Shown here: positions 32,798 through 55,003 of the stretch, piece after piece
How positions within the stretch are numbered: the stretch's first letter is position 1
How the letters are laid out: each line of letters opens with the position of its first letter
From: Planctomycetia bacterium
Lineage (GTDB): Bacteria; Planctomycetota; Planctomycetia; Pirellulales; JALHLM01
NCBI GenBank assembly: GCA_034440135.1
Contig: JAWXBP010000249.1
Coordinates: forward strand, 14,232 to 78,231
Direction: 5' to 3'
DNA length: 64,000 bases
Translations under genes and position numbers: made by a program
Notes under the pieces: generated by a model
The model's database searches: none
Seen by the model: only the letters and a program-made list of their open reading frames with translations
Told to the model about the DNA's origin: nothing

Positions 32798-33424
32798 TGT
32801 GGGAGGCGTCTCCGACGCCGATGGAGTTGACGTTGCGATGAAACACAACCGTCATGTTTTGTCAGAATACCATTTTCGATCGAGTATGCCTGCCCATTGC
32901 GGATTTGCCGATGAATACGCCCACAACTCGGGACGGTCGACTAGCCCCGCCCGAATTGGATTATTCTCGATGTAGTTGATTCGTTCGATGGCATCATCCA
33001 CGTCACGGCAACGATGGTCGAAAAAGCCTTCCTGCCACATTTGTCGACACCGCCCATCATTTCTAATGAACCGTGCTGAAGTGAACTTGCTGATACTACC
33101 AACGACATCCGATAGAGACTTCTTGCAAAGCAGAACGAAGAGCAAATGGTAGTGGTCTGGCATAACGCAAAACGCAAGTAGCTTCAGCCATTCACTTGTT
33201 CTTGCGTATGCCAAACTGTCCACGATCAGTTGGGCATTATGGGCATTCTCAAATAGCTTGTGTCGACCCTCAATAGCCTTTGTCACGAAGTAGGCCGCTG
33301 TTGCCTCGGATTGCCGACCGCCCCGCAATAGTTGGCTTTGCGGTTTTGGCTCTTGAACTATCTTGTGATTCGAGGTGTTGTCGTGCATCGACGTCCAATA
33401 TCGGCGTCGGAGACGCCTCCCACA
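32798..33424 (-). mobile_element. RAYT unit: REP-associated tyrosine transposase gene bracketed by inverted REP hairpins
   Basis: tgtgggaggcgtctccgacgccgat (32798-32822) is the exact reverse complement of atcggcgtcggagacgcctcccaca (33400-33424). Each contains the hairpin ggcgtc-tcc-gacgcc. The enclosed gene has visibly lower GC than its flanks. Confidence 0.8.
32852..33388 (-). CDS. REP-associated tyrosine transposase (RAYT; IS200/IS605 TnpA-like HUH nuclease)
   Basis: AAYFVTKAIEGRHKLF...LLAFCVMPDHYHLLFVL (HUH motif H-Y-H)...INYIENNPIRAGLV (catalytic Tyr helix). 178 aa, ATG start. Confidence 0.85.
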   Translation of the reverse strand: MHDNTSNHKIVQEPKPQSQLLRGGRQSEATAAYFVTKAIEGRHKLFENAHNAQLIVDSLAYARTSEWLKLLAFCVMPDHYHLLFVLLCKKSLSDVVGSISKFTSARFIRNDGRCRQMWQEGFFDHRCRDVDDAIERINYIENNPIRAGLVDRPELWAYSSANPQWAGILDRKWYSDKT

Positions 33425-51794: not shown

Positions 51795-54173
51795 ATGAAA
51801 CGAATCCCCCGCTGTCGAACGACGGCGTTGACCTTCGCCATGCTAAACATGCTGGGAACCATGACGTTTGCGCAATCGCCGCAGCCCAACGTCACCGACT
51901 ATTCGGCCGAGATCAATGCTCTCAGCGCCGCCATCAAATACGAAGTCGACGCCAAGCAATTGCCGGCATTCTCGATCGCGCTCGTGGACGGCGATCACGT
52001 CGTCTGGTCCGCAGGCTTTGGGTTGCAGGACGCAGCCAAACAAGTTCCCGCCACCGCCGAGACGGTGTACCGAGTTGGATCTGTCTCTAAGCTATTCACC
52101 GATATCGCGGTGATGCGTATGGTCGAGGAAGGCAAGTTAAGTCTCGACGCGCCGGTCAGCGACTACCTGCCGAGCTTTCAACCCAAGAATCCGTTTAATA
52201 AGTCGATCACACTCCGGCAACTCATGTCGCATCGCGCAGGCTTGGTGCGAGAATCGCCGATCGGCAACTATTTCGACGCGACGAGTCCTTCGCTCGCTGA
52301 TACCGTGGCAAGTCTGAACGCGACCTCGCTCGTTTTGTCGCCGGAAACGAAGGTCAAGTATTCCAACGCGGGCGTGGCCGTCGTAGGCGAGGTGTTGGAA
52401 CAGCGCGCCGGGAAGCCGTTCGCGCCCTTCTTACGCGAAACATTGCTTCATCAACTGGACATGAAACAGAGTGATTTTGAATTGACGCCGGAAGTCGTCT
52501 CCCGCCTGGCCGATGCGGAGATGTGGACCTACGACGGGCGCCGCTTCCCCGCGCCGCGCTTCGCGCTGGGCACCGCGCCGGCCGGCAATCTTTACTCGAA
52601 CGTGCTGGATCTCTCGAAGTTCATCGTCTGCTTGCTGAACGAAGGCCGCGCCGGCGATGGGATGATCTTGAAGCCGGAAACGCTACGCGAGATGACGACG
52701 CCGATCTTGGACGCCAACGACAAGCCGCTGAAATTCGGGCTGGGGTTTCATGTTCACGAATTGGATGGCCACGTGAAGATCGGCCACGGCGGCGCGGTGT
52801 ATGGGTTTTCCACGCAAGTCGAAGTGCTGCCAGAGCAGAAGCTGGGCGTCGCGGCCGTTTCTTCGCTCGACGGCAGCAACGGCGTCGTTAGTCGCCTCGC
52901 GGACTTCGCGCTGCGGTTGATGCTGGCCAAGCAATCCGGCCAGGCAGCACCGACGTACCGCCGCACCGATGCGATTCCCCTCGCGCGCGCCCAGGAACTT
53001 GTTGGCAGCTACGAGAACGGCGACCGCACCGTTCGCGTGACGGAATTGGAGGGCAAAGTTCATTTGCAGCAGGGCGCATTTCGCCAGGAATCGCGCGCCG
53101 CCGTCGACAACGGCGCGATCGTGGTCGACGATTTCATCAGTTTTGGCGCCGAAGTGACATTGTCGCAGGACGGCGTGTTGCGAATCGCCGACGTGGACTA
53201 CACGCGCCTGCCCGATGAGCCGCCTGTCGAGATTCCTGCAGCGTGGAAGGGCCTGATCGGCGAGTACGGCGAAGATCACAACGTACTCTACGTCCTGGAG
53301 GATCGCGGGAAGTTGTGCGTTCTGATCGAGTGGTTCTACTACTATCCGCTCACAGAGGTCAACGAGAACGAATTCGCGTTTCCCGGCGATGGCCTCTATC
53401 ACGACGAGAAGCTCTACTTTACGCGCGACGTATCCGGCCGCGCGACGCAGGTCGTGGCCGCTGAGGTATTGTTCAAGCGCCGCGAAGTCGGCACGCGCGA
53501 CGGCGCGACCTTCCAGATCACGCCCGTTAAGCCAATCGATGAATTGCGCGCCGCCGCGCTGGCAGCCTTACCGCCGGAGGAGCAAGGCGAGTTTCGCGAC
53601 ACCGATCTCGTGGAATTGGTGGCGCTCGATCCCACGATCAAGCTCGATGTTCGCTATGCGACGACGAACAACTTCACCGGCGCGGTGTTCTATCAGCAGC
53701 CCAAGGCCTTCATGCAGCGGCCAGCGGCGGAGTCGGTCGTGCGCGTCCATCAGAAACTGAAGGAACGCGGGCTGGGCCTACTGATCCACGACGCGTATCG
53801 TCCGTGGCACGTCACGAAGATGTTCTGGGACGCCACACCAGCGGCGTTCAAGGACTTCGTCGCGAACCCGGCACTCGGTTCGCGCCACAATCGCGGTTGC
53901 GCGGTCGACCTCACGCTCTACGACCTGGCCACCGGCCAGCCGATTGAGATGGTAGGCGGCTACGACGAATTCTCACCGCGATCGTTTCCCGACTATGCCG
54001 GCGGCACGGAGCGTCAACGCTACTATCGCGATCTGCTGCGCGCAGCGATGGAGGCCGAAAACTTCCGCGTCTACGAATTCGAGTGGTGGCACTTCGACTA
54101 CCAGGACTGGCGGCAGTACCGCATCGGCAACGCGACGTTCGAGCAATTGAACGGCGTCCAGCAGCCCCGATAG
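51795..54173 (+). CDS. fusion protein: serine beta-lactamase/PBP-like hydrolase + D-alanyl-D-alanine dipeptidase (VanX/DdpX, M15D)
   Basis: Signal peptide. SxxK GSVSKLFT, Y-S-N, HGG box. C-terminal 200 aa or so: IKLDVRYATTNNFTG...HDAYRPW...GSRHNRGCAVDLTL...EWWHFDY (VanX Zn ligands). Confidence 0.8.
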   Translation: MKRIPRCRTTALTFAMLNMLGTMTFAQSPQPNVTDYSAEINALSAAIKYEVDAKQLPAFSIALVDGDHVVWSAGFGLQDAAKQVPATAETVYRVGSVSKLFTDIAVMRMVEEGKLSLDAPVSDYLPSFQPKNPFNKSITLRQLMSHRAGLVRESPIGNYFDATSPSLADTVASLNATSLVLSPETKVKYSNAGVAVVGEVLEQRAGKPFAPFLRETLLHQLDMKQSDFELTPEVVSRLADAEMWTYDGRRFPAPRFALGTAPAGNLYSNVLDLSKFIVCLLNEGRAGDGMILKPETLREMTTPILDANDKPLKFGLGFHVHELDGHVKIGHGGAVYGFSTQVEVLPEQKLGVAAVSSLDGSNGVVSRLADFALRLMLAKQSGQAAPTYRRTDAIPLARAQELVGSYENGDRTVRVTELEGKVHLQQGAFRQESRAAVDNGAIVVDDFISFGAEVTLSQDGVLRIADVDYTRLPDEPPVEIPAAWKGLIGEYGEDHNVLYVLEDRGKLCVLIEWFYYYPLTEVNENEFAFPGDGLYHDEKLYFTRDVSGRATQVVAAEVLFKRREVGTRDGATFQITPVKPIDELRAAALAALPPEEQGEFRDTDLVELVALDPTIKLDVRYATTNNFTGAVFYQQPKAFMQRPAAESVVRVHQKLKERGLGLLIHDAYRPWHVTKMFWDATPAAFKDFVANPALGSRHNRGCAVDLTLYDLATGQPIEMVGGYDEFSPRSFPDYAGGTERQRYYRDLLRAAMEAENFRVYEFEWWHFDYQDWRQYRIGNATFEQLNGVQQPR

Positions 54174-54359
54174 GGGCGTCAGACAATAGCCAGGGGTGGC
54201 AACCCCTGGAATCCATGAACATAAGTCAGAACGAGCCCCAGAGGGGCGACACGTTCGACTTTCTGCAACCCTGCAAAGAGTGTCGCCCCATGGGGGCTCA
54301 AGGTCGTCTTCGCTGGAATTCACCAGCGGTTCGCACCGCTGGCTATTGTCTGTCGCCCC
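54173..54359. repeat. 187-bp composite palindromic element (two inverted units of about 80 nt with internal hairpins)
   Basis: Termini ggggcgtcagacaatagccag and ctggctattgtctgtcgcccc (20/21 complementary). Internal hairpins at 54190-54209, 54235-54247, 54285-54297 and 54323-54342. Confidence 0.75.
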
Positions 54360-54403
54360 GGTGGGGCTGAAATCAGCATCTTTCCGCGTGAATTGGTCAA
54401 ACG

Positions 54404-55003
54404 TCAACCTTCTTCGCTTGCGTTTTCGGAGTGGCTGCCCGTCAGCTCGGCTTCCCAATCCTCGCGCGTGAGCCGGTACAGTACGTGCCGCCGAAGCGGA
54501 TGGCCTTCCGGGAGCGTGGGATGCTCAAAATCTTCCTCCGGAGCATGGCGCATGCCGATGTTCTCCATTACGCGACGCGAGCGTAGATTCAGCGGCACAG
54601 TGAACGACAGGATCTCCGGAAGGTTCAACACCTCGAATCCGAAGACCACGGCCACGCTGGCGGCTTCCGTGGCGTAGCCTTGCCCCCAATAGGCGCTGGC
54701 TAGCCGCCAACCGATTTCGATACACGGCGTGAACGCCGCTTCGAACCGGGGCCGGCTGAGACCTACGAAGCCGATGAACTTCGCTTCGTCGGGAATCTCG
54801 ACGGCCCAGTAGCCGAACCCATGCTGCTTGAAATGCGATTCAGCACGGTCGACCGCCGCGTCCGACTCGGCGCGCGTCGCTATCGCAGGCAAGAACTCCA
54901 TCACCCGCTCGTCGCCGCACATCGCCGCGAAGGCGTCGCGATCTTCTTTGCGCCACCGTCGCAACAGGAGTCGTTGCGTTCGCAACTCAACCGGCCGGTT
55001 CAT
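54404..55003 (-). CDS. GNAT family N-acetyltransferase (RimJ/RimL-like)
   Basis: The ATG at 55003 gives MNRPVELRTQRLLLRRWRKEDRDAF. IGWRLASAYWGQGYATEAA is the acetyl-CoA motif A region. Confidence 0.85.
   Translation of the reverse strand: MNRPVELRTQRLLLRRWRKEDRDAFAAMCGDERVMEFLPAIATRAESDAAVDRAESHFKQHGFGYWAVEIPDEAKFIGFVGLSRPRFEAAFTPCIEIGWRLASAYWGQGYATEAASVAVVFGFEVLNLPEILSFTVPLNLRSRRVMENIGMRHAPEEDFEHPTLPEGHPLRRHVLYRLTREDWEAELTGSHSENASEEG

What the first reader, a model, noticed from the sequence alone, without database searches (positions are those of the whole stretch)
54173..54359. 187-bp composite palindromic element with a compensatory base-pair change between its two halves
The element starts on the last base of the stop codon of the beta-lactamase::VanX gene. 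It consists of two inverted units of about 80 nt with termini ggggcgtcagacaatagccag / ctggctattgtctgtcgcccc. Each unit carries an internal hairpin: ccagggg-tggcaa-cccctgg in one and ccagcgg-ttcgca-ccgctgg in the other. The stems differ by a G:C to C:G swap on both strands, so pairing is preserved. There are also smaller gcccc-N3-ggggc hairpins. Covariation suggests selection on secondary structure (ssDNA or RNA) rather than on primary sequence. From memory, peptides of the type encoded by its frames (SDNSQGWQPLE, CRPMGAQ, LSPRWG) show up as spurious 'hypothetical proteins' in planctomycete annotations, which would suggest a high-copy family. I cannot cite a source for this.
Basis: partly seen in the sequence, partly recalled or inferred. 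Interest (0 to 1): 0.6.

Follow-up and report, generated by a model that had tools for sequence, protein, structure and literature searches.

The report
Gene-less remnant of a hairpin-ended transposon
The palindromic element is a small gene-less copy of a mobile DNA family whose hairpin ends are catalogued in Rfam as a mystery "small RNA" and whose full-length relatives carry a single-strand (Y1) transposase that was thought to have no associated repeats.

Summary
It overlaps the last 11 nt and the stop codon of the upstream gene. Both ends are full-length matches to Rfam RF01687 (Acido-Lenti-1, listed as an sRNA of unknown function), in inverted orientation. Two smaller tagged hairpins lie between them. 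Among related loci, 67 composites of about 200 nt share this layout. In full-length relatives of about 670 nt, a 150-aa IS200-type Y1 (HUH) transposase gene sits in the centre. Transposase loci chosen by protein similarity alone also carry the units, including one in the host's own MAG. The transposase has the signature of TnpA-Y1 subclass 1.2, which was reported to lack repeats. Covariation in both hairpins is strong (98.8% of cells paired, 11 of 13 pairs with changes on both sides). There is no target-site duplication. Two syntenic orthologous sites are empty. Some composites are 88-94% identical inside unrelated flanks. I conclude that this is a non-autonomous, REPIN/MITE-like derivative. 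It is probably mobilised in trans as single-stranded DNA, but the transposition chemistry was not tested. It is a new variant of a known kind, and it re-reads an Rfam "sRNA" as transposon ends.

The parts
54163..54368 (.). Whole non-autonomous composite element (206 nt), made of a left end (LE) and a right end (RE) in inverted orientation
   Evidence: Limits of homology to 10 related composites and boundary mapping in 67 composites. Identical in four independent assemblies of the host.
54163..54209 (-). Left Acido-Lenti-1 unit (Rfam RF01687), read on the minus strand
   Evidence: 40.2 bits against gathering score 37, full-length model match. Own model R1: 62.5 bits.
54163..54177 (-). Terminal small hairpin h2b' (A-GCCCC-GATA-GGGGC). 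It contains the stop codon TAG (54171-54173) of the beta-lactamase/VanX gene.
   Evidence: Sequence, Rfam alignment, ORF end at 54173.
54178..54189 (-). Conserved linker (GTCAGACAATAG, the reverse complement of CTATTGTCTGAC). It places 5'-ATAG at the foot of the 8-bp hairpin on the plus strand.
54190..54209 (-). 8-bp hairpin H1' (CCAGGGGT-GGCA-ACCCCTGG)
   Evidence: (I16). Covariation of this helix across 145 units.
54234..54252 (-). Inner tagged small hairpin h2a' (A-GCCCC-AGA-GGGGC-GACAC)
   Evidence: searches (I2, I3; partial model hit 54235-54251).
54253..54279 (.). Variable centre. In full-length relatives the 150-aa tnpA gene sits here.
   Evidence: Comparison with L094, L040, L079, L122 and L145. 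Not conserved between composites.
54280..54298 (+). Inner tagged small hairpin h2a (GTGTC-GCCCC-ATG-GGGGC-T)
   Evidence: I2, D1; 54281-54297.
54323..54368 (+). Right Acido-Lenti-1 unit (Rfam RF01687): H1 at 54323-54342 (CCAGCGGT-TCGC-ACCGCTGG), linker CTATTGTCTGTC at 54343-54354, terminal hairpin h2b at 54355-54368 (GCCCC-GGT-GGGGC-T)
   Evidence: 39.9 bits against gathering score 37. R1: 72.1 bits.

Best explanation
The element is a non-autonomous, internally deleted derivative (REPIN/MITE-like) of a small IS200-type mobile element. A full-length member is about 670-700 bp. It has a left end of about 100 nt, a 150-aa Y1 (HUH) transposase gene, and a right end of about 100 nt that is the inverted repeat of the left end. 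Each end carries three DNA hairpins: a terminal 5-bp hairpin, a conserved 12-nt linker, an 8-bp hairpin, a spacer of about 25 nt with free sequence, and an inner 5-bp hairpin with a (C)TGTC tag. The outer 46 nt of each end is what Rfam calls Acido-Lenti-1. The window copy keeps both ends and has lost the gene. Inferred mechanism: the hairpins form on single-stranded DNA, for example the lagging-strand template. The Y1 transposase, supplied in trans by a gene-bearing copy elsewhere in the genome, recognises them and cuts at the feet of the terminal hairpins. The excised single strand is then reinserted without duplicating the target. Here the element landed in the last codons of the beta-lactamase/VanX gene, between two convergent genes, and gave that gene a new stop codon. 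The covariation reflects selection for hairpin formation in DNA by the transposition machinery. Any role as a 3'-UTR structure or weak two-way terminator would be secondary. Shown: the anatomy, the link to tnpA, the absence of a target duplication, empty orthologous sites, copying of gene-less composites, and structural covariation. Inferred: the single-strand mechanism, mobilisation in trans, and the cleavage positions.
For: (1) Both ends are RF01687 in inverted orientation. (2) The same layout recurs. There are 67 minus/plus composites of 126-255 nt (median 196) against 2 in the opposite order. (3) Full-length copies have the identical layout with tnpA in the centre and only about 24 nt between the inner hairpins and the ORF, so the hairpins are the only candidate ends (L094, L040, L079, L122). 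(4) The protein is a Y1 transposase: Pfam Y1_Tnp 95-104 bits and NCBIfam transpos_IS200 72-81 bits against cut-off 55. It has invariant DHVH, WQ and Y---Q--HH motifs. Its nearest solved structures are ISDra2 and IS608 TnpA. (5) Independent test: tnpA loci picked by protein similarity alone (L153, L154, L155-157, L158-161) all have a minus-strand unit 55-110 nt upstream, and 3 of 4 lineages have a plus-strand unit downstream. Rfam's own model confirms most of the flanking units. (6) An intact tnpA with such a left end lies on another contig of the same MAG (GCA_964408675.1) and in the same metagenome as the window locus. (7) The ends are sharp (A-GCCCC ... GGGGC-T) and 56 of 67 composites have no flanking direct repeat. 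(8) Syntenic orthologous sites L150 and L152 have the two convergent genes 0 and 23 nt apart with no element and no units. (9) Composite pairs are 88-94% identical including spacers while their flanks are unrelated. (10) Covariation is strong in both helices.
Against: No copy more than 73% identical to the window's element was found, so recent activity of this particular copy is not shown. The host's gene-bearing copy has a right end that lacks the 8-bp hairpin, so it may not be mobile itself. The link between that copy and the window rests on MAG binning. Two tnpA loci (L045, L106) have the units in the opposite, inward-facing order. No conserved target tetranucleotide was found, unlike classical IS200/IS605. 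Classical IS200/IS605 elements do not have long inverted ends. Conserved modules with free spacers would also fit selection on each copy for a host function. Both collection scans used patterns taken from the unit, so the sample is biased towards one subfamily. No biochemical or expression data exist.
Confidence: 0.8

Rival explanations
1. The two units are genes for a trans-acting small RNA, as Rfam labels Acido-Lenti-1, and the covariation reflects RNA function.
For: The Rfam family type is 'Gene; sRNA'. Weinberg et al. 2010 rated it as probably an RNA because of covariation. Covariation is strong.
Against: The units come as inverted pairs on opposite strands in a fixed 200-nt layout. They form both ends of a transposase gene. 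They are multi-copy and are copied together with their spacers into unrelated sites. They are absent from orthologous sites. No promoter-like site lies near the window copy. The first unit overlaps a coding sequence. Hairpins in single-stranded DNA give the same covariation.
Confidence: 0.04
2. The element is primarily a host structure, not mobile DNA: a two-way transcription terminator or 3'-UTR stabiliser between convergent genes, kept by selection at each locus.
For: 35 of 39 classifiable composites abut at least one gene 3' end, and 14 lie between convergent genes. On each strand the distal 8-bp hairpin is followed by CTATTGTCTG and is scored as terminator-like. The fold is very stable. 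Modules are conserved while spacers drift. REPs are known to have such roles (PMC3479197; PMC3733652).
Against: The T-tract is weak (5 of 10). The same structure flanks tnpA on both sides, including upstream of its start. Close relatives do without it, with the genes 0-23 nt apart. Near-identical copies sit in unrelated sites. This role can be true as a secondary, exapted function without being the origin of the element.
Confidence: 0.08
3. The 200-nt palindromic doublet is an older repeat that serves as a preferred insertion target for a separate IS200-like gene, as some insertion sequences target REPs. In that case the units are not the transposon's own ends.
For: Some ISs are known to insert into REPs (for example ISPpu9, abstract of PMC8450116). 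Inward-facing arrangements exist in L045 and L106, and there is an extra composite next to tnpA in L153.
Against: In L094 and L040 only about 23-60 nt separate the ORF from the inner hairpins on either side, which leaves no room for separate IS ends. The gene sits at the same central position in different lineages whose TnpA proteins are 47-79% identical. All four protein-selected lineages carry the units.
Confidence: 0.05
4. It is a conventional MITE moved by a DDE transposase that recognises terminal inverted repeats.
For: Its size (206 nt), long inverted ends and lack of coding capacity fit the general MITE description (PMC3733652).
Against: There is no target-site duplication in 56 of 67 copies, and the few short matches are near chance. 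The only gene ever found between such ends is a Y1 transposase. The ends are hairpin modules with covariation rather than conserved linear sequence.
Confidence: 0.02

Closest known systems
Rfam RF01687, Acido-Lenti-1 RNA motif (Weinberg et al. 2010, PMC2864571)
   Same: Each end of the element is a full-length match above the curated threshold: an 8-bp hairpin, a 12-nt linker and a 5-bp hairpin. The original seed already held two Rhodopirellula baltica copies, Koribacter copies and clustered Lentisphaera copies.
   Different: Rfam and the paper treat it as a stand-alone 46-nt sRNA of unknown function, noting only 'sometimes near group II introns'. Here it is the outer part of a transposon end of about 100 nt. 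It occurs in inverted pairs and flanks a Y1 transposase gene.
REPIN/RAYT (REPtron) systems of Proteobacteria (Bertels & Rainey 2011; Nunvar 2010; Di Nocera 2013; Messing 2012)
   Same: Inverted doublets of palindromic units are dispersed in extragenic DNA, mostly after genes. A Y1 transposase gene is flanked by the same units in inverted orientation. There is no target duplication. Gene-less doublets far outnumber the gene. The tetranucleotide at the hairpin foot is xTAG-like (ATAG) and the element ends in CT (PMC3479197).
   Different: The transposase is not in the RAYT clade. It scores 22-32 bits on NF047646 against a cut-off of 80, and its Y motif is Y---Q--HH rather than Y---NP. The unit is a three-hairpin module of about 100 nt rather than a single 20-40-nt palindrome. 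The tag is ATAG, not GT[AG]G. A genuine RAYT with a different repeat sits elsewhere in the same window.
IS200 (IS200/IS605 family, tnpA-only group) and its gene-less derivatives
   Same: Total size is about 670-700 bp with a single transposase of about 150 aa. The protein passes the IS200 family models. The nearest solved structures are ISDra2 and IS608 TnpA. Both ends carry hairpins. There is no target duplication and no tnpB.
   Different: The ends are long inverted repeats with hairpins reaching the very termini. No conserved target tetra- or pentanucleotide was found. tnpA appears to be low-copy rather than present as many identical copies. The protein has the extra 30-aa C-terminal tail of subclass 1.2.
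TnpA-Y1 subclass 1.2 (Quentin et al. 2018, PMC6006769)
   Same: The protein signature matches: DH[IV]H, WQ, YI.NQ.EHH, about 148 aa, a specific C-terminal tail and low copy number.
   Different: That study reports no REP and no terminal secondary structures for this subclass, and a distribution mostly in Cyanobacteria and Bacteroidetes. Here members from Planctomycetia, Phycisphaerae and Verrucomicrobiae are flanked by structured inverted ends with dispersed gene-less copies.

Membership tests
Rfam RF01687 Acido-Lenti-1 | Covariance-model score at or above the curated gathering score (37 bits), full-length match | tested here: met
   40.2 bits (54163-54209, minus strand) and 39.9 bits (54323-54368, plus strand), model positions 1-46 of 46.
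Rfam RF01687 Acido-Lenti-1 | It is a gene for a small RNA (the family type given by Rfam) | not testable with these tools
   No expression data. The genomic anatomy argues against a stand-alone RNA gene.
REP/REPIN-RAYT system | Units occur as inverted doublets dispersed in extragenic DNA | tested here: met
   67 minus/plus composites against 2 plus/minus. 35 of 39 classifiable composites lie next to a gene 3' end.
REP/REPIN-RAYT system | A Y1 transposase gene is flanked by the same units in inverted orientation (REPtron) | tested here: met
   L094, L040, L079, L122, L154, L155-157 and L153. The host-MAG copy L158 has the left unit only.
REP/REPIN-RAYT system | The transposase belongs to the RAYT clade (Y---NP motif; NCBIfam NF047646) | tested here: not met
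   NF047646 scores 22-32 bits against a cut-off of 80. The Y motif is Y---Q--HH. No TnpA-REP chain is among the PDB hits.
REP/REPIN-RAYT system | A 5' GT[AG]G tetranucleotide at the foot of the palindrome | tested here: not met
   The foot of the 8-bp hairpin carries ATAG on the opposite strand, and the small hairpins carry TGNC. Some Rfam seed members do have CUAC, which is GTAG on the other strand.
REP/REPIN-RAYT system | Single-copy, vertically inherited transposase with many repeats per genome | tested here: inconclusive
   The host TnpA is seen at one locus in several assemblies. Most TnpA clusters sit on 1-4 contigs. No complete genome could be censused.
IS200/IS605 family (IS200 group) and gene-less derivatives | Y1 HUH transposase passing the family models | tested here: met
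   NF033573 scores 72-81 bits (cut-off 55) and PF01797 scores 95-104 bits. This applies to the family's full-length members. The window copy has no gene.
IS200/IS605 family (IS200 group) and gene-less derivatives | Hairpins at both ends and no target-site duplication | tested here: met
   Three hairpins per end. 56 of 67 composites have no flanking direct repeat.
IS200/IS605 family (IS200 group) and gene-less derivatives | No terminal inverted repeats; LE and RE are different, same-strand structures | tested here: not met
   The ends are inverted repeats of about 100 nt. In some subfamilies the terminal hairpin stems of LE and RE do differ systematically.
IS200/IS605 family (IS200 group) and gene-less derivatives | Insertion next to a conserved tetra- or pentanucleotide target | tested here: inconclusive
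   There is only a weak flank bias (G at +1 in 40%, A at +2 in 43%, both flanks pooled) and no fixed motif.
TnpA-Y1 subclass 1.2 (Quentin 2018) | HuH = DH[IV]H, W motif = WQ, Y motif = Y---Q--HH, about 148 aa, specific 30-aa C-terminal tail | tested here: met
   These positions are invariant or nearly invariant in 21 sequences, including the host-MAG protein P0121. Definition from PMC6006769, Table 1. Their HMM itself was not available.
DDE-type MITE | Terminal inverted repeats plus a target-site duplication of fixed length | tested here: not met
   Inverted ends are present, but there is no consistent duplication.
Intrinsic (factor-independent) terminator | G+C-rich hairpin followed directly by a T/U run | tested here: inconclusive
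   The relaxed scan flags the 8-bp hairpin plus CTATTGTCTG on both strands: 2 sites found against 0.9 expected. The T-tract is interrupted.

The most novel reading that the evidence does not exclude
Subclass 1.2 Y1 transposases together with Acido-Lenti-1 doublets form a second, independently evolved REPIN-RAYT-like partnership. In this reading a low-copy, largely vertically inherited, domesticated transposase maintains a population of gene-less hairpin doublets across Planctomycetota, Verrucomicrobiota, Acidobacteriota, Lentisphaerota and some Desulfobacterota. The doublets would be kept because the host uses them, for example as 3'-end RNA structures. This would explain why the hairpin modules stay conserved while the spacers drift, why tnpA appears single-copy, and why tnpA lies next to ispF in two different classes.
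Probability: 0.3. Interest if true: 0.7.

Novelty: new variant of a known kind. Interest (0 to 1): 0.55.

Why it matters
It gives a concrete, testable identity to an Rfam family that has been listed since 2010 as an sRNA of unknown function: the hairpin ends of a Y1-transposase element. It also assigns DNA substrates to TnpA-Y1 subclass 1.2, which its only description I found reports as lacking repeats and terminal structures. That family is large: at least 7,778 proteins at E <= 1e-20 among the 8,000 candidates scored. Practical consequences follow. RF01687 hits in genome annotation should be read as mobile-element ends. Short ORFs inside these elements are likely to be spurious. Such insertions can rewrite gene 3' ends, as happened here. 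If the domestication reading holds, it would be a second independent case of the REPIN-RAYT type of relationship, found outside the Proteobacteria.

Tried and rejected
(1) The window's own RAYT (32852-33388) as the cognate enzyme. Its perfect 25-nt flanking repeats have a different sequence, so I rejected it as the direct partner.

(2) Koribacter TIRYT aba_1552 (Di Nocera 2013) as the cognate family. It produced the first tblastn hits, but only through distant homology (43% over 53 aa). The real protein is subclass 1.2, not a TIRYT.

(3) The 'restored C-terminus' test for insertion. Orthologue tails after ...ATFE(E/Q)L all differ, so the test is uninformative.

(4) A target-site duplication or a conserved target motif. 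None was found.

(5) A recent sister copy of the window element. The best full-length match is 73%.

(6) MAFFT alignment of units. It was ungapped and misaligned the second hairpin, so I seeded a covariance model from eight units of identical geometry instead.

(7) P0139 locus. No DNA was available.

(8) Di Nocera's Figures 1 and 9 are not held. I could not check whether the 8-bp hairpin alone was already listed as a GTAG-type family in R. baltica or O. terrae.

(9) An integron attC site, a CRISPR-like array and a TnpB omega-RNA were considered. There is no GTTRRRY core. Called neighbours of the protein-selected tnpA loci carry no OrfB/TnpB Pfam family. I did not screen the loci for cas or integrase genes.

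Full report
OBSERVATION. An outer inverted repeat has arms 54166-54209 and 54323-54366 (44 nt, 82% complementary). An inner one has arms 54233-54252 and 54280-54299. Each outer arm holds an 8-bp hairpin, CCAGGGGT/ACCCCTGG on the left and CCAGCGGT/ACCGCTGG on the right, and these differ by a compensated G:C to C:G swap. A small GCCCC-N3/4-GGGGC hairpin occurs four times. The 21-nt terminus occurs twice against 0 expected by chance. As a single strand, the element folds far better than shuffled sequence, with z = -9.3 as DNA and -9.7 as RNA.

The boundaries need correcting. Alignment with related copies shows homology from A-GCCCC at 54163 to GGGGC-T at 54368, which is 206 nt. The element therefore supplies the last 11 nt of the 792-aa beta-lactamase/D-Ala-D-Ala dipeptidase gene, including its stop codon. 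It fills most of the 230-nt gap to the convergent GNAT acetyltransferase gene.

IDENTITY OF THE UNIT. Both ends are full-length matches to Rfam RF01687, Acido-Lenti-1. The left one is on the minus strand (40.2 bits) and the right one on the plus strand (39.9 bits), against a gathering score of 37. Weinberg et al. 2010 described this motif from 89 instances in Acidobacteria and Lentisphaerae as a probable trans-acting RNA. Their only comment was that it is sometimes near group II introns. Their seed alignment already contains two Rhodopirellula baltica copies, and the Lentisphaera copies are clustered at regular spacings.

RELATED COPIES. A pattern scan of one genome per species found real units in Pirellulales, Bremerella and other Planctomycetota, and in a Verrucomicrobiae MAG, an Acidobacteriota MAG and a Desulfobacterales MAG, plus a few chance hits. 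A covariance model built from eight units and a sequence profile mapped about 240 near-full-length units in 143 loci.

The window's architecture is the dominant form. There are 67 pairs of a minus-strand unit followed by a plus-strand unit, spanning 126-255 nt (median 196), against only two pairs in the opposite order. Within the composites the order is: terminal hairpin, linker, 8-bp hairpin, a spacer of about 25 nt, an inner tagged hairpin, the centre, and then the mirror image. The hairpins and the linker are conserved. The spacers keep their length but not their sequence. In the Verrucomicrobiae MAG, one half of this structure (about 100 nt) occurs alone or in direct tandem. In the Desulfobacterales MAG, five units form a 69-nt tandem array.

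THE GENE. I used RAYT/TIRYT protein sequences from the supplement of Di Nocera et al. 2013 as local tblastn queries. This first revealed a RAYT elsewhere in the window (see below). It then revealed weak hits lying between widely spaced unit pairs in the metagenome loci. Those intervals encode 150-aa proteins that pass Pfam Y1_Tnp (95-104 bits) and NCBIfam transpos_IS200 (72-81 bits, cut-off 55). They do not pass the RAYT model (22-32 bits, cut-off 80). Homologues occur in 11 of the loci that had been fetched only for carrying the unit.

In L094, L040, L079 and L122 the layout is exactly that of the composite, with tnpA in the centre. In L094 only about 24 nt separate the inner hairpins from the ORF, so the hairpin modules are the only possible ends of this element of about 670 bp.

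INDEPENDENT TEST. A database search with one of these proteins found at least 7,778 relatives at E <= 1e-20, nearly all exactly 150 aa. I fetched contigs for homologues chosen only by protein similarity and contig length. Every lineage has a minus-strand unit 55-110 nt upstream of the start codon. Three of four lineages have a plus-strand unit downstream. Rfam's own model confirms most of these flanking units at its curated threshold.

One of these proteins (P0121) is encoded on contig CAYPAO010000404.1 of GCA_964408675.1. That is the same MAG that holds the window's locus, and the protein also occurs in the same JGI metagenome. So the host appears to have an intact transposase gene of the right type. 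Its left end is complete, but its right end has only the small hairpins.

MOBILITY. Three lines of evidence bear on this.

(a) Two syntenic orthologous loci (L150 and L152; 74% and 73% protein identity; same upstream gene in L150, and a GNAT orthologue downstream in both) have the convergent genes 0 and 23 nt apart with no element. The closest orthologue (L151, 78%) has a composite at a different offset with different spacers.

(b) The element ends are sharp, and 56 of 67 composites have no flanking direct repeat. That argues against a DDE-type MITE and fits HUH/Y1 transposition.

(c) Several composite pairs are 88-94% identical over their full length, spacers included, while their flanks are unrelated. 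Examples are two copies 2.7 kb apart in a Bremerella contig and pairs within single metagenomes. The gene-less element is therefore itself copied.

The window's own copy has no close sister in my sample; the best full-length match is 73%.

STRUCTURE SELECTION. On 145 aligned units, 98.8% of cells form standard pairs. Eleven of 13 pairs show changes on both sides, and 127 cells are compensatory against 21 in shuffles. Sliding the partner columns drops pairing to 29-64%. The alignment is fitted to the model, and the fetch pattern fixed the 8-bp stem in one unit per locus. The second hairpin and the partner units are free of that bias. The association with a Y1 transposase, an enzyme class that recognises hairpins in single-stranded DNA (PMC3479197; PMC6006769), makes DNA the most likely selected form.

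PLACEMENT. The protein carries the signature that Quentin et al. 2018 give for TnpA-Y1 subclass 1.2: DH[IV]H, WQ, YI.NQ.EHH, about 148 aa and a 30-aa C-terminal tail. These positions are invariant or nearly invariant in 21 sequences. Its nearest solved structures are the ISDra2 and IS608 transposases. That paper states that subclass 1.2 has no REPs and generally no terminal secondary structures, and that it is found mostly in Cyanobacteria and Bacteroidetes. A text search found nothing else on this subclass.

In organisation the system resembles a REPtron with REPINs. In protein and size it resembles IS200. It fails one defining feature of each: it is not in the RAYT clade and lacks the GT[AG]G tag, and it has long inverted ends and no fixed target motif.

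One suggestive detail: the 8-bp hairpin has 5'-ATAG at its foot on the opposite strand, and each strand of the element ends in CT. In E. coli TnpA-REP, the A and G of GTAG select a CT cleavage site. I could not test this parallel.

GENE CONTEXT AND POSSIBLE SIDE EFFECTS. With rough ORF calls, 21 composites lie between tandem genes, 14 between convergent genes and 4 between divergent genes. This is the distribution reported for REPs. On each strand the distal 8-bp hairpin is followed by CTATTGTCTG, which a relaxed scan scores as terminator-like. A secondary role in 3'-end formation or mRNA stability is therefore possible but not shown.

LIMITS. Both collection scans used patterns taken from the unit, so the sample favours one subfamily. 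Copy number in the host is unknown, and there is one copy in 64 kb. The host link rests on binning. No expression or biochemical data exist. Figures of the 2013 survey were not available, so an earlier listing of the 8-bp hairpin as a GTAG-type family cannot be excluded.

VERDICT. The finding is real. It is best explained as a gene-less derivative of a Y1-transposase element whose ends are the Rfam Acido-Lenti-1 motif. It is a new variant of a known kind of system, of moderate interest.

Noticed in passing
window 32798-33424: A genuine RAYT gene lies at 32852-33388 on the minus strand (178 aa; NCBIfam REP_Tyr_transpos 112.7 bits against cut-off 80). It is flanked by a perfect 25-nt inverted repeat, TGTGGGAGGCGTCTCCGACGCCGAT, and each arm contains a GGCGTC-TCC-GACGCC hairpin. 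This is a second Y1/repeat module, with a different sequence, in the same 64 kb. The same repeat forms a 92-nt inverted doublet in L092 (2790-2881), a contig from the host's sample series that also carries an Acido-Lenti-1 composite.
   Followed up: partly
L158 1053-1505 (= L145 3571-4023); L155 2501-2953: The subclass 1.2 tnpA lies next to ispF (YgbB) both in the host MAG, where it sits between cysS and ispF, and in a Phycisphaerae MAG whose TnpA is 62% identical. Other lineages (L153, L154) have different neighbours. This could be coincidence, a shared target, or old vertical inheritance.
   Followed up: no
L158 1506-1640 (= L145 4024-4160): The host-MAG tnpA copy has a complete left end, but its right end has only the two small tagged hairpins. 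The 8-bp hairpin and CTATT are missing. The same state is seen in contigs from several samples.
   Followed up: partly
L025 7374-7700; L006 731-883: Outside Planctomycetota the units are arranged differently. There are five direct tandem copies with a 69-nt period in a Desulfobacterales MAG, and direct tandem modules of about 100 nt in a Verrucomicrobiae MAG. The Lentisphaera seed copies in the Rfam source alignment are also clustered at periods of 74, 115 and 192 nt.
   Followed up: partly
L122 1-1226: This short contig reads: composite, 57-nt junction, full tnpA element, the same 57-nt junction, then the start of another left end. The period is 833 nt. This is either a tandem array or an assembly loop through a repeat.
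   Followed up: no
L045 1-1000: About 60 nt, apparently a gene's 3' end (...GKE*) by my own reading of the frame, directly precede a minus-strand unit on both sides of tnpA, and the units face inward. L106 has the same inward order. This arrangement does not fit the simple LE-tnpA-RE picture.
   Followed up: no
L151 2490-2687: The closest orthologue of the upstream gene (78%) also has a composite downstream. It starts about 70 nt after the stop codon instead of overlapping it, and its spacers are different. This is either an independent insertion into the same gap or an old shared one that has been reshaped.
   Followed up: partly
window 53973-54458 (minus strand); 54083-54370 (plus strand): Mechanical ORFs of 161 aa and 95 aa run through the whole element. 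Translations of other copies repeatedly give SPRWG and QGL.PLAI peptides.
   Followed up: partly
window 51795-54173: The beta-lactamase + VanX-type dipeptidase fusion is 792 aa here. Many Pirellulaceae and Stieleria orthologues are about 1,135-1,145 aa and carry an additional precomputed PF13354 hit.
   Followed up: no
composites in L124, L103, L088, L114, L033, L066, L073, L058, L054 (and the mirror image in L093, L119, L131, L118, L107, L100, L130, L022): In one large subfamily the two terminal hairpins of a composite differ systematically: GTCCC/GGGAC at one end and GCCGC/GCGGC at the other. So the left and right ends are distinguishable and are not two copies of one unit.
   Followed up: no
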